Assembly: GCF_009914755.1 (NCBI RefSeq)
Contig: NC_060947.1
Origin: the human T2T-CHM13v2.0 reference genome, Homo sapiens
Length of the DNA stretch: 64,000 bases
Strand: one strand, 5' to 3'
Shown: piece by piece, positions 28,455-61,322 of the stretch
Layout of the letters: every line of letters begins with the position of its first letter
How positions within the stretch are numbered: position 1 is the first letter of the stretch
Notes under the pieces: model-generated
The model's input: the letters and a program-made list of their open reading frames with translations, nothing else
What the model was told of the DNA's origin: nothing
Database searches by the model: none
Translations under genes and position numbers: made by a program

Positions 28455-31530
<3,076 letters not shown>

Positions 31531-51764: not shown

Positions 51765-52749
51765 TAAAGTATATTAATGTTAATTTAATGTAGGAAAGAA
51801 CAAGTCATAGGTAAATATGATATTTTAAATAAATGATTTGTTTTTTGTACTCAAAGTGTGACCCTTCCAAGTGTATCACCCAGAGTAAGAATCTGCAGCA
51901 GTTATTCAGTTATCTTCTTTCATTTAAAATACCTATTTCCATATTAATATTTTATTGCATTGATTGTGACAGTTTAATGCTATACTGTACAGATGTCATC
52001 TCAGAAAGTGTAAACACTGAATGAATTAAATGCAGAAGAAGGCCTCATTCTGTCCAAATTGAAGCATATCACAAGTTACTACTATATTTATGACAGATTT
52101 TCACCTCATACCAAACACTTTATTTTTAGAAGTTCAAGAAAACACAGCCATTCTCCACTTTGAGAACATTTTCCGACTTATCACTGACATAAGTGTAAAT
52201 CTGATATTTTTCCCTTTTTGTAAAGCAAAAATAGAAATCCATGCATACCTGCTTACTTATAATTGACATCCCCCATCTCCACCCAATAAAGGCAGGCTGG
52301 AAAAGAATATAAGACTTCTAAAACCTGCGGGATTTTGTTTTGTTTCTTTTCTACTACCATATTATGTATCAAGATAGTTTAACACTCATATTAGAAGGCA
52401 GTGTCCCAGTAGTCCCATAAAGTCTGAGACTTTTATATTTAAGAGGGTAATAGTAGCTCCCTTGCTACTATAAAGTGATGTTCATACGAAGAGTATTGTC
52501 GCAGACCTGTACAGCAGATTATTTACTTTTAATCACCTCCAAAGAAACGTTAATTAGTGTTTTCAAATTACCAAGACTACCACAGAAGTGTACCGAGGTT
52601 TTCGGAGCTACCTTAATGGCTTCTATGCAGGAAAGAAAGAGGTTTCCCTCCCTTCTTCCTTCTCTCATCTTAATTTTAATCATATTTATTCTGCTTTTTT
52701 TCCTTGTTTGTATATAATGCTAGGTGATGTTAAAACATTATTTATGACA

Positions 52750-53105
52750 CTTGTTAGAGAATGGTAAGGCAGATTATACCTAGAAAGACTATCATAGTAG
52801 GTATGGTTACTACCACAATAGGATTTTGCAGTAAAGGAGAGAGATTGAACTCCATTCTGATTACAAAAATAAAAAAAAATAAAAAAAAGTGGGCATTTGT
52901 ATCCAAAGGACAGGGTAGGTGTCTGCGGATAAAACAATTACTAAAATTTGAATCAATTTGAAACATCAGATATAAGGGGAGATTCTGGTTAAACCAACAT
53001 AACAAGACCATTGCTGAGGGCAAGCCAGGTAGTCAGACATCACCTGGGGGATGGTGGAGGATGAAGAACCCTATTAGATAACAAGGGTGATCATATATGA
53101 AGGGT
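52750..53105 (-). mobile_element. MER31-like ERV1 LTR fragment
   Basis: cagacatcacctgggggatggtggaggatgaagaaccc. Confidence 0.65.
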
Positions 53106-53158
53106 AAATGCCAATGGATATATTAGCTGGAAGATTATTTACCACTTGCTTAGGAAAA

Positions 53159-53390
53159 TTAGCTGCGGGGATGCCCACCTGCTTGGAGCTGCGGCCGAAG
53201 TCCCGCACCACTTGGCCCGGGCAGAATTAAGGCAGATGTTCCATAACGCTGTCTGCTTGGGGTATGGGCTGCGGCCCGGTCCGCGTGTTTTGCGGAGCCG
53301 CAGTTGACGTGGTGCCTGGACCCCCGACCAGCCGCGAGGCAGGAGCGTGGGCTCTGCCTACCGTGGGGGCGCACCAGGGGTCGGACGAAC
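53159..53390 (+). other. Unassigned GC/CpG-rich insert; candidate structured RNA
   Basis: 156/230 G+C over 53161-53390 and about 21 CpG by hand count; several helices with G-U pairs on +; matches no repeat or RNA family I recognise. Confidence 0.6.
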
Positions 53391-54827
53391 TCAAGAATAG
53401 TTTCTGTTGGAATAACTATTTTAGTCAAGAAATCGAGTAACACAATATAAAAGCAAGCTGTTTGATCTGGGTTGGGGTTCCATAAGGAAAAACAGAGGTT
53501 TCTCCCCAGAAGGGAGCCTGATGCCTTCTCTGTTTACTTTAAGGAATCCCAGGCTCTTACAAACTATTTTAGGTCCCTCATGAAGCAAAGGAAAAAAATA
53601 GCAAGAGAAAGGTGAGACAGCAGAATTAAATGAAGAAAACAGAATTTAGTCAGCTGAGAAGAAAAAGAAAAACTTTTGCTCAAAGAAGAAAAGATCATAG
53701 GCGAGAAAAAAACATAAAAGCTTCATAAATACGAACACACACATGCACACACACACATCTTTGATGCTAGCTTTTAATTAAGCTGACTTTTAAACATTGA
53801 GCTTCTTTAAAAAAGTCTTTTAAAATCTCATTACCATATTTTAGCTAGGACAAACTGCTGATATTTCAAAAGTAACAAGTATCAAACCAGAAAGGACTTG
53901 ATTTAGGAACCAAACCCAGGCTGTCACGGGAAAAAAGAAGGCAGAACCTTAGCTACAACAGAATTGCAGCATGGGGCAACAGCCATTGCTCTTTCAGTTT
54001 GGCTTGGCTAGCAAAAAGGTGGCCTTGTTATGTAAATAAAGCCACTTAAGTAGTCTAATTAAAAATCTTTCCTTTTTGCTTTTTTTCTTTTGGCTGGCCT
54101 TTTTTTCTGCTCCCCGCCACCACCTTTTTGTGCAGGAATTTAGCCACTTCAGATGCCTTGTTTCCCATAAATTTGAACTTTATATTGGATTTGATTACGT
54201 CAGATAGAGTTGGTCAAACCAATGCAAAAAACTGAAACAACAAGAAAAACAGAAACGACAAAAAACTGAAACAACAAGAAAAACAGAAACAAACTACAAC
54301 AATAACAAAAAAAATTTTAAGCAAAACAAATGATGCACAAATTATACAATTACCGAATGCTCTAATGGTAAAGAGGAATTAAGACCAGCTGGTTGTTAAT
54401 CTTAACTTTTGCTAAGATAAAAACCCCAATTCAGCTATTTACGTAGGGAGGAGTCTCAGGCTGAAGACTGCTATCTACTATCCTAGAAGCAGGAGAAAAC
54501 TCAAACTTGCCTTCTCCGTTGGAAGTGAGCTCAAACTCCAGAAAGGCGTTACCTGCCTTGCATTGTCATGAAAGCAGAAAAACTTGCCTTCCTCGTTGGA
54601 AGCACGTAAATCTCCAGAAAAGGCATTGTACAGAAAAATAAACTTTAGATCTCAACCAAATTTTGGGAGATCAGGGATTTTCTGGAGGGAGGGGAGCTCC
54701 CAGGCCTCAGCAAATTGTTTTATTAGTTTGAGCCATAAAAGTATTTCAAGCTAGTACCAAGCACCCATAGGAGATTTGTCAAAAGTCAAGGACACCTCCA
54801 TTCAGAATCCCTTTGTGGTCACCAAAT
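53391..54827 (-). mobile_element. MER4 internal 5' region (leader), inverted relative to the rest of the provirus
   Basis: Ends in a PBS next to the MER4A LTR. Confidence 0.75.
54807..54824 (-). promoter_or_regulatory. Primer-binding site, tRNA-Arg type
   Basis: Minus strand TGGTGACCACAAAGGGAT, 3 nt from the LTR end. Confidence 0.75.
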
Positions 54828-55086
54828 TGTTAACACAAAATATCTGAGACAGCTGTCAGTCAATTTAGAAAGTTTATTTTGCTAAGGTTAAGGACACACC
54901 TGTGACACAGCCTCAGGAGGTCCTGATGACACGTGCCCAAGGTGGTCAGGGCACATTTTCATTTTATACATTTTAGGGAGACATGAGACATTAATAAATA
55001 TATGTAAATTGTACATTGGTTCAATCTGGAAAGGCAGGACAACTCAAAGAGGGGAGGGAGCTTCCAGGTCATAGATAAAAAGAGAC
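54828..55086 (-). mobile_element. MER4A LTR, 3' half only
   Basis: Reverse-complement homologue of 61062-61322. Confidence 0.85.
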
Positions 55087-55472
55087 GATGAATAAAGGAG
55101 GGAAGGGGTTTTTATGTCTAATGCAGGGTCCCTACCTCTGTGTCACTCCCCCATGGGCTGGGGTTGGACTGCACAATCTAAACTGACCCGACTGGCTACT
55201 TGTGAATATTTTCCCAAATCAGGAAGGGAAGGGGGATGTGTGAGTGAGTTACAATGGTAGGACTTGTGGTTTCGAAGGGTAGAATAGGTGCAGAGCGGGT
55301 AACTAAGGGAACAGATGTGAGTTATAGATTAAAACTGATGGGAAGGTTGTTTAGAGTAACTAGAGGCAAGGAGGCATGGAGAACAAGAAAGTTGAGTTTG
55401 AGAACAAAGAACAAGGAAGTTAACAGGCTGAACCTTTGAAGAGAAATTCAAAGAAATTCATTGTATCTTACA
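55087..55472 (-). mobile_element. LTR10-like LTR, 5' part only
   Basis: Minus strand starts tgtaagatacaatgaatttc...ctcttcaaaggttcagcctgttaacttccttgttc. Confidence 0.65.
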
Positions 55473-56863
55473 AGTTTTTAAAGAAGAGTGTAGTTTAGAC
55501 ACAAAAATGTCTTTGTTAAAAAACAAACAAACAAAAAAACTAAAGTGCACTGTAAAAGCATCACATGGTCTAGCCTCATAATAATTCTTCCTTTTTGGAG
55601 ACCCAGGATTCAGTGTGGGCTCTGCTCAGAACTCAGAAATCCAGTTAAAAGGTAGGTAGACTCTGTCTAAATAAAATTGATCTCCTTTTATAATCCTATG
55701 ATAGATTTCTACAAATTTATGTTGGATTTGACATCTATCTTTAATCTCCCTCCAGCATCACCAGACTTTCTCTCTGTATTTTGAGATGTAAATTTCACTA
55801 TGCTATTTTTTAACCTAAGAGTCCTTTAATATGTAAATGAAGGGCCTTCTAGCTGACAATTGCCTGGGGTAATAAAATAGGAAATTGGAAGTCTAAAATA
55901 GGAAGAAAAAATAGAGGCCTTATGAATATATAAGATTTACTTCTATCTATGTATCTAATACATCTATGCATTTATGTATCATGTATATGATGTTTCACTA
56001 CTAAAAATGTATAAAATAGCTCTAATTAATTGGCTAAAATGCTTAAATCAAATACATTACCAGAAAAATAGAGACTTTAAGCCAAGTGCTTTTTAACGTT
56101 CCTGTGATTTAAGTAAATATTTAATAAATAAGCTATTTTTTAAAATATTGGTGAAATAGGATAAAAAATGCCTTGAGAATTGTTAACATACATTGTCTCT
56201 GCTAGATGTCAAAATTTGGCATGAGTGTTATAAAGCTATGAATGCAGCTTAAAAGAGAGTTATCTTCGTTTATGTAAAATTTAATAAATAAAACATTTAA
56301 TATTGTTCAGTTAATGAAAACGACAAAATTCTGACTTATTGGAAAAAAAATAACTTATCTAATCTTAAAATTTTTGCTTAGGAAAACCTGAAATTCACAG
56401 GTTATAAAAGTGGTTAACAAGGAAACAACTTTAAATAATAACTATCACAGTTTTCATAAGTAATCTGGTTAAACTATTAAAAAAAATTAGGTAAATGTAA
56501 TGGAATGTTTAAAAGTAATCTTGTCATATAATATAAAATCTAATGTTATATTAAGCAAAATAATAGCTATTCATTAAATGTCTAGGTCATTTCCAATTTT
56601 CTTTAAATAATAGGAAAATATTTTTTAAAAAAGAACTGGGATTTTACTTAAAACTAATTTTTGTCTAATTCAAAGGTTATTTTAAAGTTTTTTATAAAAT
56701 TAGGTAAAGGCAATCAGTGAATAAAATCAACGTAAAAAATGTTATAAAGAGGTATTTTTGGCAAGAAAGATTAAAAGGAAAATAATTTTATATGAGAATG
56801 AATCTTGTATGATAAATTTTTGTCTTAAAATAAAATAAATGGTTATTTAAGACAGAGGGTGCC

Positions 56864-57384
56864 CATTACTGGGTATATACCCAAAGGATTATAAATCATG
56901 CTGCTATAAAGACACATGCACACATATGTTTATTGCAGCACTATTCACAGTAGCAAAGATTTGGAACCAACCCAAATGTCCAACAATGATAGACTGGATT
57001 AAGAAAATGTGCACATATACACCATGGAATACTATGCAGCCAGAAAAAATGATGAGTTCATGTCCTTTGTAGGGACATGGATGAAGCTGGAAACATCATT
57101 CTCAGCAAACTATCACAAGGACAAAAAACCAAACACCGCATGTTCTCACTCATAGGTGGGAATTGAACAATGAGAACACATGGACACAGGAAGGGGAACA
57201 TCACACACCGGGGACTGTTGTGGGGTGGGGGGGGTGGGAGGTATAGCATTAGGAGATATATCTAATGCTAAATGACGAGTTAATGGGTGCAGCACACCAA
57301 CATGGCACATGTATACATATGTAACAAACCCGCACGTTGTGCACATGTACCCTAAAACTTAAAGTATAATAATAAAAAAAAGAA
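56864..57384 (+). mobile_element. 5'-truncated L1PA3-like element
   Basis: gctaaatgacgagttaatg and cctaaaac; perfect 15-bp TSD aagacagagggtgcc. Confidence 0.92.
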
Positions 57385-58124
57385 AAGACAGAGGGTGCCT
57401 AGGTTAAAAGAGAAACCCAAGCCTGTCATAAAATATTTCATATCAAGTTGTCTATAATTAAAGGGAAATAATTTATAATAGTCTCTCTAGAGATTGGGTT
57501 ATTGATGTAAAAACGCTTATGCACTAAAGAATTGGTTAGAACAATGACATTTTCTTAAGGGATTGATTTACTCTTAATAAACTATAAGATATTTTAACTT
57601 TTTAACCCAAAAACATAATTGTCTCACCATTTTCAGTTTTCTTTCCCACTTCAAAAGGCCTAAAATAATGACTCTCTCCCTCAACTAATTCTCAAGCTTA
57701 TGCAAGTTCCCCCCACGACCCCCCACCCTCAGTTGCTGTTTGTTGTGGCCTAATGCTAAGAATGTTTTTCTTGAAGGTCTAAATGAAATGTTTTCTTCCA
57801 ATACAGTATTCTGTGCACCGCAGAAGTTATTTTCTTTTGCCTTTTGGCAACTGGCTGAAAAAACAGATTTTACATTTTATTGAAATAATTCTTATGTCAT
57901 TGTTATTAAGCTTTAGTTTGCTTAGAAAAAACTGAGAATAATTTTTTTGTAAGCTAAGGTTATTACATCCATGTAACTTTCTGTATGTGCCTTTAAAGTC
58001 CTTGTGCCATTGAGTTACAGGGCTTTGACTCTTGGACCTAAAAAGGACACTGAGTCCTGCTAAAATCTTAAACACTGACAGCAGTTAAAGTCTCATCTTC
58101 AGACCTGGTAGAAGATGCCATTCA

Positions 58125-58527
<403 letters not shown>

Positions 58528-60873
58528 CTATCATGGAAGAGGTGGGCATGTAAGATTGTAAGGGCTGGCTTTAAGAGATAAAATTAGTTCAGTTTCTCTA
58601 GAAATTAACTATTAATATCAAAGGCACACTGATGCAAAACCAGCATCTGGGCCTCGGTGACCGATTAACAAGGTTTTATTGGAGCATTAACCCACTCCTT
58701 AATACAAAATTATAAAGATTACAAGAAGGTTAATAGAAATTATATTGTATGGTCAAGATGATTAAATTGTATAGGTTGTTTACAAGATGTTGAGAGACAC
58801 ATTTAATTGACCTTACACTGTCTTTATTAAGGATTATTGTTTGGAAAATTGTCTCCTCTCTCAAATAATAAAGGTTTCCACCTTTTTTGAAATCTGTGGG
58901 TTATTACTTTGGCTAAATGAATGACCTGTTTTACAATGACCTGTGATTCTATTCTGGCAATATAAAGTGTTTTAAACTTTTTATGTTCAGCAAGCTTTCC
59001 AAAATTAAGTTCTAACTTCAGTCCTCATTAATTTTTGGATTTTGGTTTCCTGAAGTCCAAAAGAGACATATTTGGCTTATTATCATACAAGAAGTATTGT
59101 CAAATATGAAACAGTGTTTAATCTTCTTGGGATTATATTTATATAAATGTATTATTAGTGTGTGTTCCAGAATTGTATGAAATTCCTGTGATTCTAATAT
59201 GTCTTAACGTATGTTATCAGTAGTAATTATGATTATTATGTAAAATCGGTGTATGCCATAGAAGTAAACAAATTTCCTTGTCAATTGTGTCTTTAGCTAT
59301 GCCTGTTCTAAAACTTGTCATATACAGTTCTTTTTACTTTTATCCTTTTCCAAAGATGTTTTTATAATCAGCTATAGGATTCTGACAGATGCTGTCAAAT
59401 GCAGGTTTCTGATAACTATGGAGATTGTTACACTAGAATACAGAGAAAACTTCCAAGACTCCCAAGGAGAGTTAAAGATGAGTATCAAGCAGAACAGGAG
59501 TTAACTGCATGGACTAAACTTATAGAAGACTGACATAATCCTTTTATGAATTTTTGCTTTAAATATTGCTAATCCTTTGTTTTTGAGAGCCGAGAAAACT
59601 GTTCTTTTGAGCTATTTGCAGCTTTTAAGAATTGGGTAAACTATACTCAGATAAACAAAATATGGAACATATTTCTCTCTACCTGATTTATACAAAATTT
59701 GAGAAGTAGTTGTGAGTATTCTTTACTTATGGCAATGTAGTTATTTACATAAGTGCATTAAGAATCTGTTTTCTTTTGTAACAGGACACAATTGGAAACA
59801 CTGGTTATTTTACCAGTGTCTTGACTTGAATGGGGTACTTTCAGATACAGACTCCTTTAAGGAATTAAAGTTAACTTATACAGCCAATAAAAGCCCCTGG
59901 GGAAAACTGGCATAATACCTTGTCTAGGCAGCCCTGTACAGACTCCTGACCTATGGTAAGTAAAGAATGTCACTTTCTAACAAGCCCAAGAGCCCCAAGT
60001 TTTCCTGCACCCTAAAAGTGAGGAATTCACTCAGCTAATACAGGTATTTGTAGGCACAGAATGGGCTTAAGGCATTAAAGTCAAATCTGAGATCCTTTAT
60101 GGAATTAAGTTGCAACAAAGCCAAAAAAAAAAAAAAAAAAAGAAGAAGGAGCCTGTATGGCAAATAATTATTTTTTCTCACTTTATGAAAATACTCAGGC
60201 CAAGTATCATAAGACTAAAACTTATCTTCCAAATGAATTTGTACTATAATTAGTCTTTACTGAAAATGGGGACTGGAGAGAGAAAAATTGTGTTTCAAAA
60301 TCAACTATAGTACACCTGTTATTAGCTTCTCGTCTTGCATAAGGCTTTTCAATTTTTATTATTTTCTACAGTTTGGACTAAATTCTGAAACTTTTTGTGG
60401 TTACAAGTCCCCAGTATAATGTTTTCCATTTCTTTTCCTTCTTTCTTTTACTTTTAAATTTTTTTTCTGATTTTAAATCACTGAAAACTAAGCTGAGCTT
60501 TCTTAAAGCCTTGCAAACTGAAGTTAGGCAAATTAAACTTCAGAAGAAAATAAAAGCAACTTGTTTACATACGTAAGCCACTCTCATACCTGCCTACTGA
60601 TATATGAACTTCAGAGTTATATGGCCTACATTGATTTTCCAGAATTTTTATATTTTCATTTGTTGTTGTTTTTCACCTTCCTCCCACTATTTGCTCTTCA
60701 CAGGATGTGAGACTTCACAACCTTCTAAAAATGAGTTTTCCTAACAACATGGGACCTACCCTTCTAGGAATAAACCATCCTAGCCATGAGAAATCAGATG
60801 AAAACTGGGACCAGAGACTCTTTTTCTTCTAAAATGCTTTTTCTGAAAGATTTTAAAAAGAAAAGAAGGGAAA

Positions 60874-61322
60874 TGTGAAAGGAAAATAAAATTTTAGACC
60901 CCAACACCACTAAGCTAAAGGGAAAAGTCAAGCTGGGAGCTGCTTAGGGCAAATCTGCCTCCCATTCTATTAAAAGTCATTCCTCTGCTTACTGAGATAA
61001 ATGCACATCTGATTGCTTCCTTTGGAGAGGCCAATCAGCAACTCAAAAGAATGTAACCATTTGTCTCTTATCTACCTATGACCTGGAAGACCCCTCCCCA
61101 CTTTGAGTTGTCCCACCTTTCCAGATGAATCCAATGTACATCTTAAATATATTAATTGATGTCTCATGTCTCCCTAAAATGTATAAAATGAAGCTGTGCC
61201 CAGACCACCTTGGGCACATATCATCAGGGCCCCCTGAGGCTCTGTCACAGGTGCATTCTTATCCTTGGCAAAATAAACTTTTTAAATTGACTGAGTCCTG
61301 TCTTAGATATTTTGGGTTAACA
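60874..61322 (+). mobile_element. MER4A 3' LTR
   Basis: tgtgaaaggaaaataaa...tttgggttaaca; PPT upstream; aataaa. Confidence 0.9.

What the first reader, a model, noticed from the sequence alone, without database searches (positions are those of the whole stretch)
53159..53390. Foreign-looking 230 bp GC/CpG-rich cassette inside decayed ERV DNA
Composition jumps abruptly to ~68% GC with ~21 CpGs, while the flanks are AT-rich with almost none, so the segment has escaped the methylation decay seen in all surrounding repeats. I see no TSD, poly(A), LTR or TIR ends, and no match to Alu, SVA, L1 5'UTR, 7SL, TERC or RMRP that I can recognise. It is either very recent (captured or horizontally derived), protected and functional, or not native (contaminant, mis-assembly or engineered insert). 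It is the strongest anomaly in the window.
Basis: seen in the sequence. Interest (0 to 1): 0.9.

Follow-up and report, generated by a model that had tools for sequence, protein, structure and literature searches.

The report
Riboflavin-kinase cDNA scrap from an ERV
The CpG-rich patch is not foreign DNA: it is a dead, intron-less 283-base piece of the human riboflavin kinase gene, apparently brought in by an ancient retrovirus that had picked up that gene, and it has kept its CpGs unusually well.

Summary
Window 53159-53390 is 67% GC with 21 CpGs (observed/expected 0.81, against 0.16 for the whole window) and is the densest CpG cluster in the 64 kb.

It is native sequence. The minus strand of 53105-53387 is 86% identical, without gaps, to the spliced 5'UTR, exon 1 and start of exon 2 of the riboflavin kinase gene on contig C9. 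The fragment has a stop at codon 6.

It is probably not an ordinary L1-type pseudogene. Five other copies of the same cDNA lie inside LTR-flanked, gamma-like proviruses. These have a proline-type primer-binding site, 4-bp target duplications and an env remnant. In them the cDNA replaces about 2.8 kb of gag to RT, at junctions shared by the three copies compared.

In the window, about 385 bp of that same LTR lies 1.7 kb upstream in the same orientation. It is integrated, with an AGTT duplication, into an older rearranged provirus.

The X fragment kept 15 of the parent's 26 CpGs. Its equally diverged relative on C3 kept 5. This suggests germline protection from methylation; I could not test that.

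I found no paper describing this capture. Overall it is a mundane origin with one moderately interesting side result.

The parts
53105..53162 (-). First 58 nt of riboflavin-kinase exon 2 (AT-rich), joined to exon 1 with no intron
   Evidence: Ungapped alignment to the spliced parent cDNA crosses the exon 1/exon 2 junction at 53163|53162. The parent copy on C9 stops matching here and shows a GT donor.
53163..53387 (-). Riboflavin-kinase exon 1 piece: about 144 nt of 5'UTR plus the first 27 codons. The decayed ATG is at 53244 and there is a stop at codon 6.
   Evidence: 244 of 284 identical to the parent cDNA; translation MEHLP*; 21 CpG. Pfam Flavokinase PF01687 matches the paralogues and the three C9 exons.
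53388..53391 (.). AACT, which is AGTT on the minus strand: one copy of the 4-bp target-site duplication of the older provirus R
   Evidence: R-left ends ...TTCTTGAGTT and is joined to the cDNA. The same four bases start R-right after the LTR terminus.
53392..54829 (-). Inverted 5' internal part (primer-binding site, leader, gag region) of the older provirus R
   Evidence: Matches L012 4475->2750 and L018 3728->2013 at 77-79% identity in reverse orientation. 531 candidate copies in the genome. No Pfam domain in any open piece.
54830..55086 (-). Last ~250 bp of the 5' LTR of provirus R, inverted
   Evidence: Aligns to the window's own 3' LTR of R and to L012 and L018. 86.5% identical to 61064-61322.
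55087..55472 (-). First ~385 bp of the LTR ('LTR-Q') of the gamma-like ERV family that carries the riboflavin-kinase cDNA. Its TG terminus is intact; its last ~115-130 bp are missing.
   Evidence: 76-88% identical to the LTRs flanking the cDNA-bearing proviruses and to full-length proviruses. The terminus ...TTACA at 55472 is followed by AGTT.
55473..60873 (+). Remaining internal part of provirus R in forward orientation. It begins with the second AGTT copy (55473-55476) and carries later insertions.
   Evidence: Collinear with L012 4478->8001 and L018 3726->6927. The gap at about 58175-58500 matches the repeat seen many times.
60874..61322 (+). 3' LTR of provirus R, preceded by a polypurine tract
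   Evidence: Matches L018 1810-2262 and L012 2555-3000. Starts TGTGAAAGG after AAAAGAAGGGAAA and ends ...TTAACA.
52960..53104 (.). Fragment of an unrelated high-copy repeat, cut off at the junction with the cDNA piece
   Evidence: 395 candidate copies. In L019 the family sequence continues where the window switches to the cDNA, with 1 bp (G) of overlap.

Best explanation
The cassette is a non-functional remnant of host cDNA. It comprises 144 nt of 5'UTR, exon 1 and the first 58 nt of exon 2 of riboflavin kinase, spliced, on the minus strand. I name the gene RFK from recall; Pfam gives the family as Flavokinase.

It most likely did not arrive by L1 retroposition. The likely carrier is an extinct gamma-like endogenous retrovirus ('Q'). 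By a single capture event, Q had replaced about 2.8 kb of its gag-to-RT region with about 600 nt of RFK cDNA, running from about 214 nt upstream of the ATG to about 12-15 nt into exon 4. Q then spread as a defective virus that needed a helper. Five such proviruses survive on C3 (two copies), C7, C12 and C19.

One copy integrated in minus orientation into an older provirus ('R') on the X chromosome. It left an intact LTR terminus and a 4-bp AGTT duplication. A complex rearrangement followed, at integration or later. It replaced the virus's U5, primer-binding site and leader with an inverted 1.7-kb copy of R's own 5' part, and it deleted everything downstream of exon 2 position 58.

The exon 1 piece comes from the parent gene's CpG island. 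On my inference it has stayed largely unmethylated in the germ line, which is why it stands out against decayed surroundings.

Shown here: the identity, the splicing, the paralogues, the proviral architecture and the junction sequences. Inferred: that the X copy came in with LTR-Q, the order of events, and hypomethylation. The confidence given is for identity plus retroviral origin together. Identity alone I put at about 0.97, and the specific rearrangement path at no more than 0.3.
For: Identity. 244 of 284 bases match the spliced parent cDNA, without gaps, across the exon 1/2 junction. The parent has GT-AG introns and a 155-codon ORF. PF01687 Flavokinase matched 8 places (9 candidates scored) in the genome, including the three C9 exons and the C3 and C7 proviral copies.

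Retroviral carrier.
- All five 5'-complete, non-L1-type copies have LTR-Q on both sides.
- The three proviruses checked (3 of 3) have 4-bp target duplications: TGTC, TCTC and ATTT.
- A proline-type primer-binding site follows the 5' LTR and a polypurine tract precedes the 3' LTR.
- There is a TLV_coat remnant.
- A full-length relative has zf-CCHC, RNase_H, Integrase_H2C2, rve and TLV_coat in that order.
- The cDNA replaces L020 7395->4627.
- Both junctions are shared by C3a and C7 (and the 5' one also by C12).

The X copy.
- LTR-Q lies 1.7 kb upstream in the same relative orientation as in the proviruses.
- With about 445 candidate LTR copies in 3.1 Gb, an LTR within 2 kb by chance is of the order of 1 in 1000.
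- The X fragment plus the five proviral copies form one side of a branch with support 88/88 (8 rows) and 85/89 (10 rows).
- All six share GAGGCA->GG[GA]A[CT]A at the start codon and CCTGT->CCTGC, against the host gene and the L1-type copies that can be read at those columns.
- The fragment has no poly(A) and lacks both ends of the cDNA.

CpG retention. X retains 15 of the parent's 26 CpGs and C3a retains 5 of 26, at similar non-CpG divergence (0.112 and 0.122). Fisher p = 0.0095.
Against: - In the window the LTR piece and the cDNA piece are not contiguous. 1.7 kb of R lies between them, and no other part of Q is present in the 64 kb. The link therefore rests on proximity, orientation and phylogeny.
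- Tree support is moderate, not decisive. Holding X with the parent gene costs only 3.6 log-likelihood units (p-AU 0.107), and the alignment has only 292 columns.
- X's highest raw identity is to the parent gene (85%), not to a proviral copy.
- The AGTT duplication is only 4 bp.
- No simple one-step model reproduces the arrangement. Every model I tried needs a breakpoint exactly at the target duplication.
- The first DNA search missed at least two further RFK retrocopies, so the census may still be incomplete.
- CpG retention is indirect evidence. 8 of the 11 lost parental CpGs in X are TpG/CpA, so protection was not complete.
Confidence: 0.82

Rival explanations
1. It is an ordinary L1-mediated processed pseudogene fragment of riboflavin kinase that was later truncated at both ends. 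The LTR-Q piece 1.7 kb away is an unrelated solo LTR.
For: L1-type RFK retrocopies exist. C1:240.23 Mb holds exons 1-4 contiguous with no LTR-Q in the 10-kb locus. C22:41.26 Mb and C1:211.89 Mb are further examples. X's highest raw identity is to the parent gene. A clade of X with the parent is not rejected (p-AU 0.107).
Against: There is no poly(A). Only the 5' part is present, whereas L1 copies are typically 3'-complete (recalled rule). X shares derived substitutions with all five proviral copies. LTR-Q of the same family sits in the same relative orientation as in the proviruses. The R-side border of the cDNA piece is the 4-bp duplicate of the LTR-Q integration site.
Confidence: 0.08
2. Whatever its origin, the fragment is now a functional orphan CpG island, such as a promoter or regulatory element kept unmethylated by selection.
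For: It retains 58% of parental CpGs against 19% in its closest relative. It meets the 200-bp / 50% GC / o/e 0.6 CpG-island criteria (criteria recalled; numbers). The hub's annotation places a RefSeq enhancer at 53966-54554 and a predicted lncRNA start at 55603.
Against: The same exon 1 piece also keeps o/e 0.79-0.87 in the C7 provirus and the C1 pseudogene, both in CpG-poor surroundings. Retention therefore looks like an intrinsic property of the sequence rather than locus-specific selection. The fragment is only about 230 bp. 11 of 26 parental CpGs are lost. No transcript or feature is annotated on it. I have no conservation or methylation data.
Confidence: 0.12
3. It is foreign, contaminant, mis-assembled or engineered DNA.
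For: Only the abrupt jump in composition.
Against: It is 86% identical to a human gene's spliced cDNA with decay-type differences. There are at least 7 human paralogues at 69-85% identity. Its borders carry an integration duplicate and a 1-bp overlap with an old human repeat. A contaminant or construct would be near-identical to its source.
Confidence: 0.01

Closest known systems
FAM8A1 transduced by HERV-K (Jamain et al. 2001, seen only as cited in passages of Tan et al. 2016, PMC5131818)
   Same: A spliced human host cDNA sits inside an endogenous retrovirus, lacks L1 hallmarks, and is now a dead pseudogene.
   Different: Here the carrier is a gamma-like (class I) ERV with a proline-type primer-binding site, not HERV-K. 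The captured gene is riboflavin kinase. The transducing virus went on to make at least five proviruses in two sublineages. The window holds only a rearranged scrap.
LTR-mediated retrocopies formed by template switching (Tan et al. 2016, PMC5131818; passages read)
   Same: A partial host mRNA lies between discontinuous LTR-element sequence. It is truncated at the 3' end and has no poly(A). There is a short similarity at the 5' fusion point (GGACTCCA vs GGAGACGCA).
   Different: The microsimilarity here is weak and I could not score it. That paper reports three human cases, and I could not read its Supplemental Table 8 to see whether riboflavin kinase is among them.
Replication-defective transducing retroviruses (delta-gag-host gene-delta-pol architecture of v-onc viruses; recalled textbook knowledge)
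   Same: Host cDNA in sense orientation replaces gag-pro-RT. LTRs, primer-binding site, polypurine tract and the 3' part of the genome are kept. Spread must depend on a helper.
   Different: The insert is a metabolic enzyme lacking its last ~36 codons, not an oncogene. It became fixed in the germ line. One sublineage spread after an internal deletion that destroys the reading frame, so the insert probably gave no coding function.
L1-type processed pseudogenes of riboflavin kinase (C1:240.23 Mb, C22:41.26 Mb, C1:211.89 Mb)
   Same: Same parent gene, with introns removed.
   Different: These run into exon 4 and the 3'UTR and have no LTR-Q in the 10-kb loci. In the tree they fall outside the branch that unites X with the proviral copies.

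Membership tests
Retrocopy (processed pseudogene) of riboflavin kinase | Sequence homology to the parent gene's exons | tested here: met
   244 of 284 identical to the spliced C9 cDNA. Pfam Flavokinase matches the paralogues and the parent exons.
Retrocopy (processed pseudogene) of riboflavin kinase | Introns removed | tested here: met
   Exon 1 and exon 2 are contiguous at 53163|53162. The parent has a 1.5-kb intron there with GT-AG ends.
L1-mediated processed pseudogene | 3' poly(A) tail, a target-site duplication of its own, and a 3'-complete copy | tested here: not met
   The fragment ends 58 nt into exon 2 against an unrelated repeat. There is no A-run at either border. The 5' border is the AGTT duplicate of an LTR integration.
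Retrovirally transduced host gene (LTR-mediated retrocopy) | Host cDNA lies between the two LTRs of a provirus, in place of viral genes | tested here: met
   Met in all 5 paralogous proviruses. In the window itself only a truncated LTR and the cDNA piece remain, separated by 1.7 kb of R.
Retrovirally transduced host gene (LTR-mediated retrocopy) | Same virus-host junctions in all copies (one capture), with each provirus having its own target duplication (spread by integration) | tested here: met
   The 5' junction is shared by C3a, C7 and C12 and the 3' junction by C3a and C7, the rows included in each alignment. Target duplications are TGTC, TCTC and ATTT in the 3 proviruses checked. The junctions and target duplications of C19 and C3b were not examined. 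The X copy retains neither capture junction.
Retrovirally transduced host gene (LTR-mediated retrocopy) | Microsimilarity at the fusion points | tested here: inconclusive
   There are a few similar bases at the 5' junction. No statistical test was done.
Gamma-like (class I) endogenous retrovirus (the carrier) | LTRs with TG..CA ends, a 4-bp target duplication, a primer-binding site, a polypurine tract, gag-pol-env order and a gamma-type env TM | tested here: met
   TLV_coat scores E 2e-7 in L020 (above the cut-off) and E 1.5e-4 in the C7 provirus (just below it). The RT domain itself was not detected by Pfam. Assigning the primer-binding site to tRNA-Pro rests on the recalled MLV-type sequence.
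   No repeat library is available. The surroundings are shown only to be a provirus-like, high-copy element.
CpG island | At least 200 bp, GC above 50%, observed/expected CpG above 0.6 (recalled Gardiner-Garden and Frommer criteria) | tested here: met
   232 bp, 67% GC, o/e 0.81. It fails the stricter 500-bp criterion (recalled Takai and Jones).
CpG island | Unmethylated in the germ line | not testable with these tools
   Inferred only from CpG retention relative to sister copies.

The most novel reading that the evidence does not exclude
An extinct primate gamma-like retrovirus transduced a truncated riboflavin-kinase cDNA. It persisted as a helper-dependent transducing virus long enough to split into two sublineages and colonise the germ line at six or more sites. 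This would be a multi-copy case of host-gene transduction by a HERV that I could not find in print. The captured CpG-island piece then behaves as an autonomous methylation-free islet at some insertion sites (X, C7) but not others (both C3 copies, C19). That makes the family a natural experiment on what lets a short CpG-rich fragment resist methylation.
Probability: 0.35. Interest if true: 0.6.

Novelty: new member of a known kind. Interest (0 to 1): 0.35.

Why it matters
For the finding as posed, it matters little. The 'foreign cassette' is a decayed scrap of a human gene.

Two side results are worth a specialist's look.

First, host-gene transduction by human endogenous retroviruses is reported as rare. 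Tan et al. 2016 cite one described human case and add two more. Here one capture gave at least five proviruses plus this remnant.

Second, copies of one 280-bp CpG-island fragment, of similar age, sit in different CpG-poor places with very different CpG survival: 11-19% against 50-69% of parental CpGs. This offers a natural test of sequence-autonomous versus context-dependent protection from germline methylation.

Tried and rejected
- Small-RNA gene or pseudogene. Rfam at E<=10 over 52000-54600 gave nothing on the segment.
- The rest of the cDNA or of virus Q elsewhere in the window. BLAST of all 64 kb against the paralogous loci, three RFK proviruses and four LTR-Q loci found only 53105-53388 and the LTR piece at about 55069-55476. 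All other hits were common repeats.
- Segmental duplication from the C3 locus. Rejected because the flanks are unrelated.
- Hybrid LTR made by a non-homologous first-strand transfer (U3-R of Q joined to R-U5 of R). Rejected because the junction in R's LTR lies about 110 bp upstream of its TATAAAA box, inside U3.
- Single simple inversions, inversion between inverted LTRs, and autointegration circles. Each reproduces some junctions but leaves the cDNA in the wrong orientation or needs an LTR end where the cDNA is. This was reasoning.
- Template-switch repair that copies the broken target end is the only path I found that explains the exact AGTT border. It is speculation.
- Pfam on 67 open pieces of window 53392-61322 gave no retroviral domain. 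There was one weak DUF7599 hit, probably chance.
- Literature. Searches found no paper linking riboflavin kinase or RFK to an ERV, LTR, pseudogene or retrocopy. Two searches added nothing. The library omits most subscription journals and repeat-library notes.
- Supplemental Table 8 of PMC5131818 could not be searched.
- A solved-structure search to name the parent protein did not run. The Pfam scan of the genome served instead.

Full report
OBSERVATION

Window 53159-53390 is 232 bp, 67.2% GC, with 21 CpGs and an observed/expected ratio of 0.81. The 2 kb on either side have ratios of 0.18 and 0.24, and the whole window 0.16. In a 232-bp sliding scan the eleven richest windows all overlap this place. 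The richest elsewhere has 12 CpGs (profile). Shuffling the segment's own bases gives 25.9 +/- 3.4 CpGs, so the segment is essentially undepleted. No Rfam family matches the segment.

WHAT IT IS

A search of the window's own genome found 7 other places matching the segment at 69-85% identity; 8 candidates were found and all 8 scored. In six of them the homology runs beyond the GC-rich part, over window 53105-53388. In the seventh, on C9, it stops at 53163, exactly where the C9 sequence reads CAG|GTGAG on the other strand, and that copy lies in CpG-rich DNA.

The C9 locus is an intron-containing gene with four exons, GT-AG borders and a 155-codon frame. The window fragment, read on the minus strand, matches its spliced cDNA at 244 of 284 positions without a gap, straight across the exon 1/exon 2 junction at 53163|53162.

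Pfam Flavokinase (PF01687) matches the three C9 exons and several intron-less copies, with E down to 4.6e-24. I name the gene RFK, human riboflavin kinase, from recall. The tools give only the family.

The window copy is dead. Its frame reads MEHLP and then a stop. It holds about 144 nt of 5'UTR, the 27 codons of exon 1 and 58 nt of exon 2. It has no poly(A) and lacks both cDNA ends.

HOW IT GOT THERE

Window 55096-55472 is a repeat with about 445 candidate copies. Several of them occur as same-strand pairs 7-11 kb apart, which is how the two LTRs of a provirus look. Copies of this LTR ('LTR-Q') lie beside the riboflavin-kinase copies on C3 (two loci), C7, C12 and C19. All five of those loci have it on both sides.

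In the orientation of the cDNA the proviruses show these features:
- The LTR starts TGTAAG and ends ..CA.
- A polypurine tract precedes the 3' LTR.
- A primer-binding site of the proline type follows the 5' LTR. The assignment rests on the recalled MLV-type sequence.
- The three proviruses checked carry 4-bp target duplications: TGTC, TCTC and ATTT.
- The C7 provirus keeps an env TM remnant (TLV_coat, E 1.5e-4, just under the cut-off) and a weak Flavokinase hit.

A full-length relative (L020) shows zf-CCHC, RNase_H, Integrase_H2C2, rve and TLV_coat in retroviral order. Against it, the C3 provirus carries about 600 bp of cDNA in place of L020 7395->4627. That is about 2.8 kb, holding the gag zinc knuckle and, by canonical order, protease and RT.

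The 5' virus-host junction is the same in C3a, C7 and C12, and the 3' junction the same in C3a and C7, the rows each alignment included. The 5' junction lies in gag and joins to about 214 nt upstream of the ATG. The 3' junction lies about 12-15 nt into exon 4. This indicates one capture, then spread by integration. There are two sublineages: C3a, and the C7/C12/C19/C3b group, which shares an internal deletion.

LTR-LTR divergence is 8.6-12%. At a recalled neutral rate of about 2.2e-9 per site per year this is roughly 20-30 million years.

Three further copies are ordinary retrocopies: C1:240.23 Mb, C22:41.26 Mb and C1:211.89 Mb. They run into exon 4 and have no LTR-Q in the fetched loci. Two of them were missed by the first DNA search, so the census may be incomplete.

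THE X LOCUS

The window shares only two things with the riboflavin-kinase proviruses: the cDNA piece and the first ~385 bp of LTR-Q. Both lie on the minus strand, in the same relative order and orientation as in the proviruses, 1.7 kb apart.

Phylogeny gives moderate support. The X fragment joins the five proviral copies against the host gene and the L1-type copies with support 88/88 and 85/89. All six share substitutions at the start codon and at CCTGT->CCTGC. However, a tree holding X with the parent is not rejected (p-AU 0.107).

The surroundings are an older provirus-like element, R. It has 450-bp LTRs, a polypurine tract, TATAAAA and AATAAA signals, and hundreds of copies. Its 3' part runs forward from 55473 to a 3' LTR at 60874-61322. 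Its 5' part, comprising the last 250 bp of the 5' LTR plus 1.44 kb, lies inverted at 55086-53392. The two LTR pieces are 86.5% identical.

The break in R is at one point. R-left ends ...TTCTTGAGTT and is joined to the cDNA. LTR-Q's intact TG terminus (...TTACA on the plus strand, ending at 55472) is followed by AGTTTTTAAAG of R-right. This is a 4-bp duplication of the kind the Q family makes.

The other junctions are these:
- LTR-Q is joined to R's LTR inside a short similar stretch (..GTCTCT..), upstream of R's TATA box.
- The cDNA piece is joined at 53104|53105 to an unrelated repeat with 1 bp of overlap.

I read this as a Q-RFK provirus integrated in minus orientation into R, followed by a complex rearrangement. 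Simple inversions, LTR-LTR inversion, autointegration and strong-stop-transfer models all fail on orientation or on the position of the junction (see Tried and rejected). Template-switch repair that copied the broken R end up to the integration cut would fit, but that is speculation.

WHY THE CpGs SURVIVE

The same 285 columns were compared copy by copy with the host gene, which has 26 CpGs there.

| Copy | Parental CpGs shared |
|---|---|
| X | 15 of 26 (21 CpGs in all) |
| C3a | 5 of 26 |
| C3b | 5 of 26 |
| C19 | 3 of 27 |
| C12 | 7 of 21 |
| C7 | 13 of 26 |
| C1 pseudogene | 18 of 26 |

Non-CpG divergence from the parent is similar for X (0.112) and C3a (0.122). X against C3a gives Fisher p = 0.0095.

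So the exon 1 piece, which comes from the parent's CpG island, has resisted decay at some sites and not at others. The likeliest cause is that it stayed largely unmethylated in the germ line at those sites, and short CpG-rich DNA is known to be able to do this (recalled). Protection was not complete: 8 of X's 11 lost CpGs are now TpG or CpA. I have no methylation data.

COMPARISON AND NOVELTY

The kind is known. Host cDNA inside a HERV was described for FAM8A1 in HERV-K. Tan et al. 2016 report three human LTR-flanked retrocopies in all (PMC5131818; passages read). I could not read their Supplemental Table 8. Five text searches found no paper linking riboflavin kinase to an ERV, LTR or retrocopy. 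Repeat libraries, which may already hold this internal sequence, are not searchable here.

I file the finding as a new member of a known kind.

VERDICT

The foreign, recent and artefact readings are refuted. The origin is mundane, with a moderately interesting retroviral-capture history and a testable CpG-protection angle.

Noticed in passing
G000 C22:41261067-41261369 (L024 3901-5631) and C1:211892356-211892583 (L025 4709-6278): Two more riboflavin-kinase retrocopies, found only by the Pfam scan. They reach exon 4 and the 3'UTR and have no LTR-Q in the 10-kb loci. The C22 copy is 88-92% identical to the parent cDNA, so it is younger than the proviral copies. The first DNA search missed them.
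   Followed up: partly
L014 (C7), L015 (C12), L016 (C19), L017 (C3b): Four of the five riboflavin-kinase proviruses share an internal deletion from exon 2 position ~96 to the tail of exon 3. The virus therefore kept spreading after the insert could no longer encode the enzyme.
   Followed up: partly
window 55603-55651 and 53966-54554: The first exon of the predicted lncRNA LOC107985653 starts about 130 bp beyond the LTR-Q terminus, inside provirus R. The RefSeq 'enhancer' lies in the inverted leader/gag part of R. Both features are therefore ERV-derived sequence next to the rearrangement (hub annotation).
   Followed up: no
window 54800-54830 (minus strand), L012, L018: After its 5' LTR, element R reads TTTGGTGACCACAAAGGGAT. 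From recall this resembles a decayed arginine-tRNA primer-binding site. This was not tested.
   Followed up: no
L004 (C7:23794869-23795083) and L006 (C1:240234810-240235054): The exon 1 piece keeps CpG observed/expected of 0.87 and 0.79 at these two other loci although their 1-kb flanks are at 0.10-0.42. At C3a, C3b and C19 it has fallen to 0.30-0.38.
   Followed up: partly
window 30941-31184: This is the second-richest CpG spot of the window (12 CpG in 232 bp). It matches the short repeat seen many times in the window and in the loci, probably a fairly young Alu.
   Followed up: no
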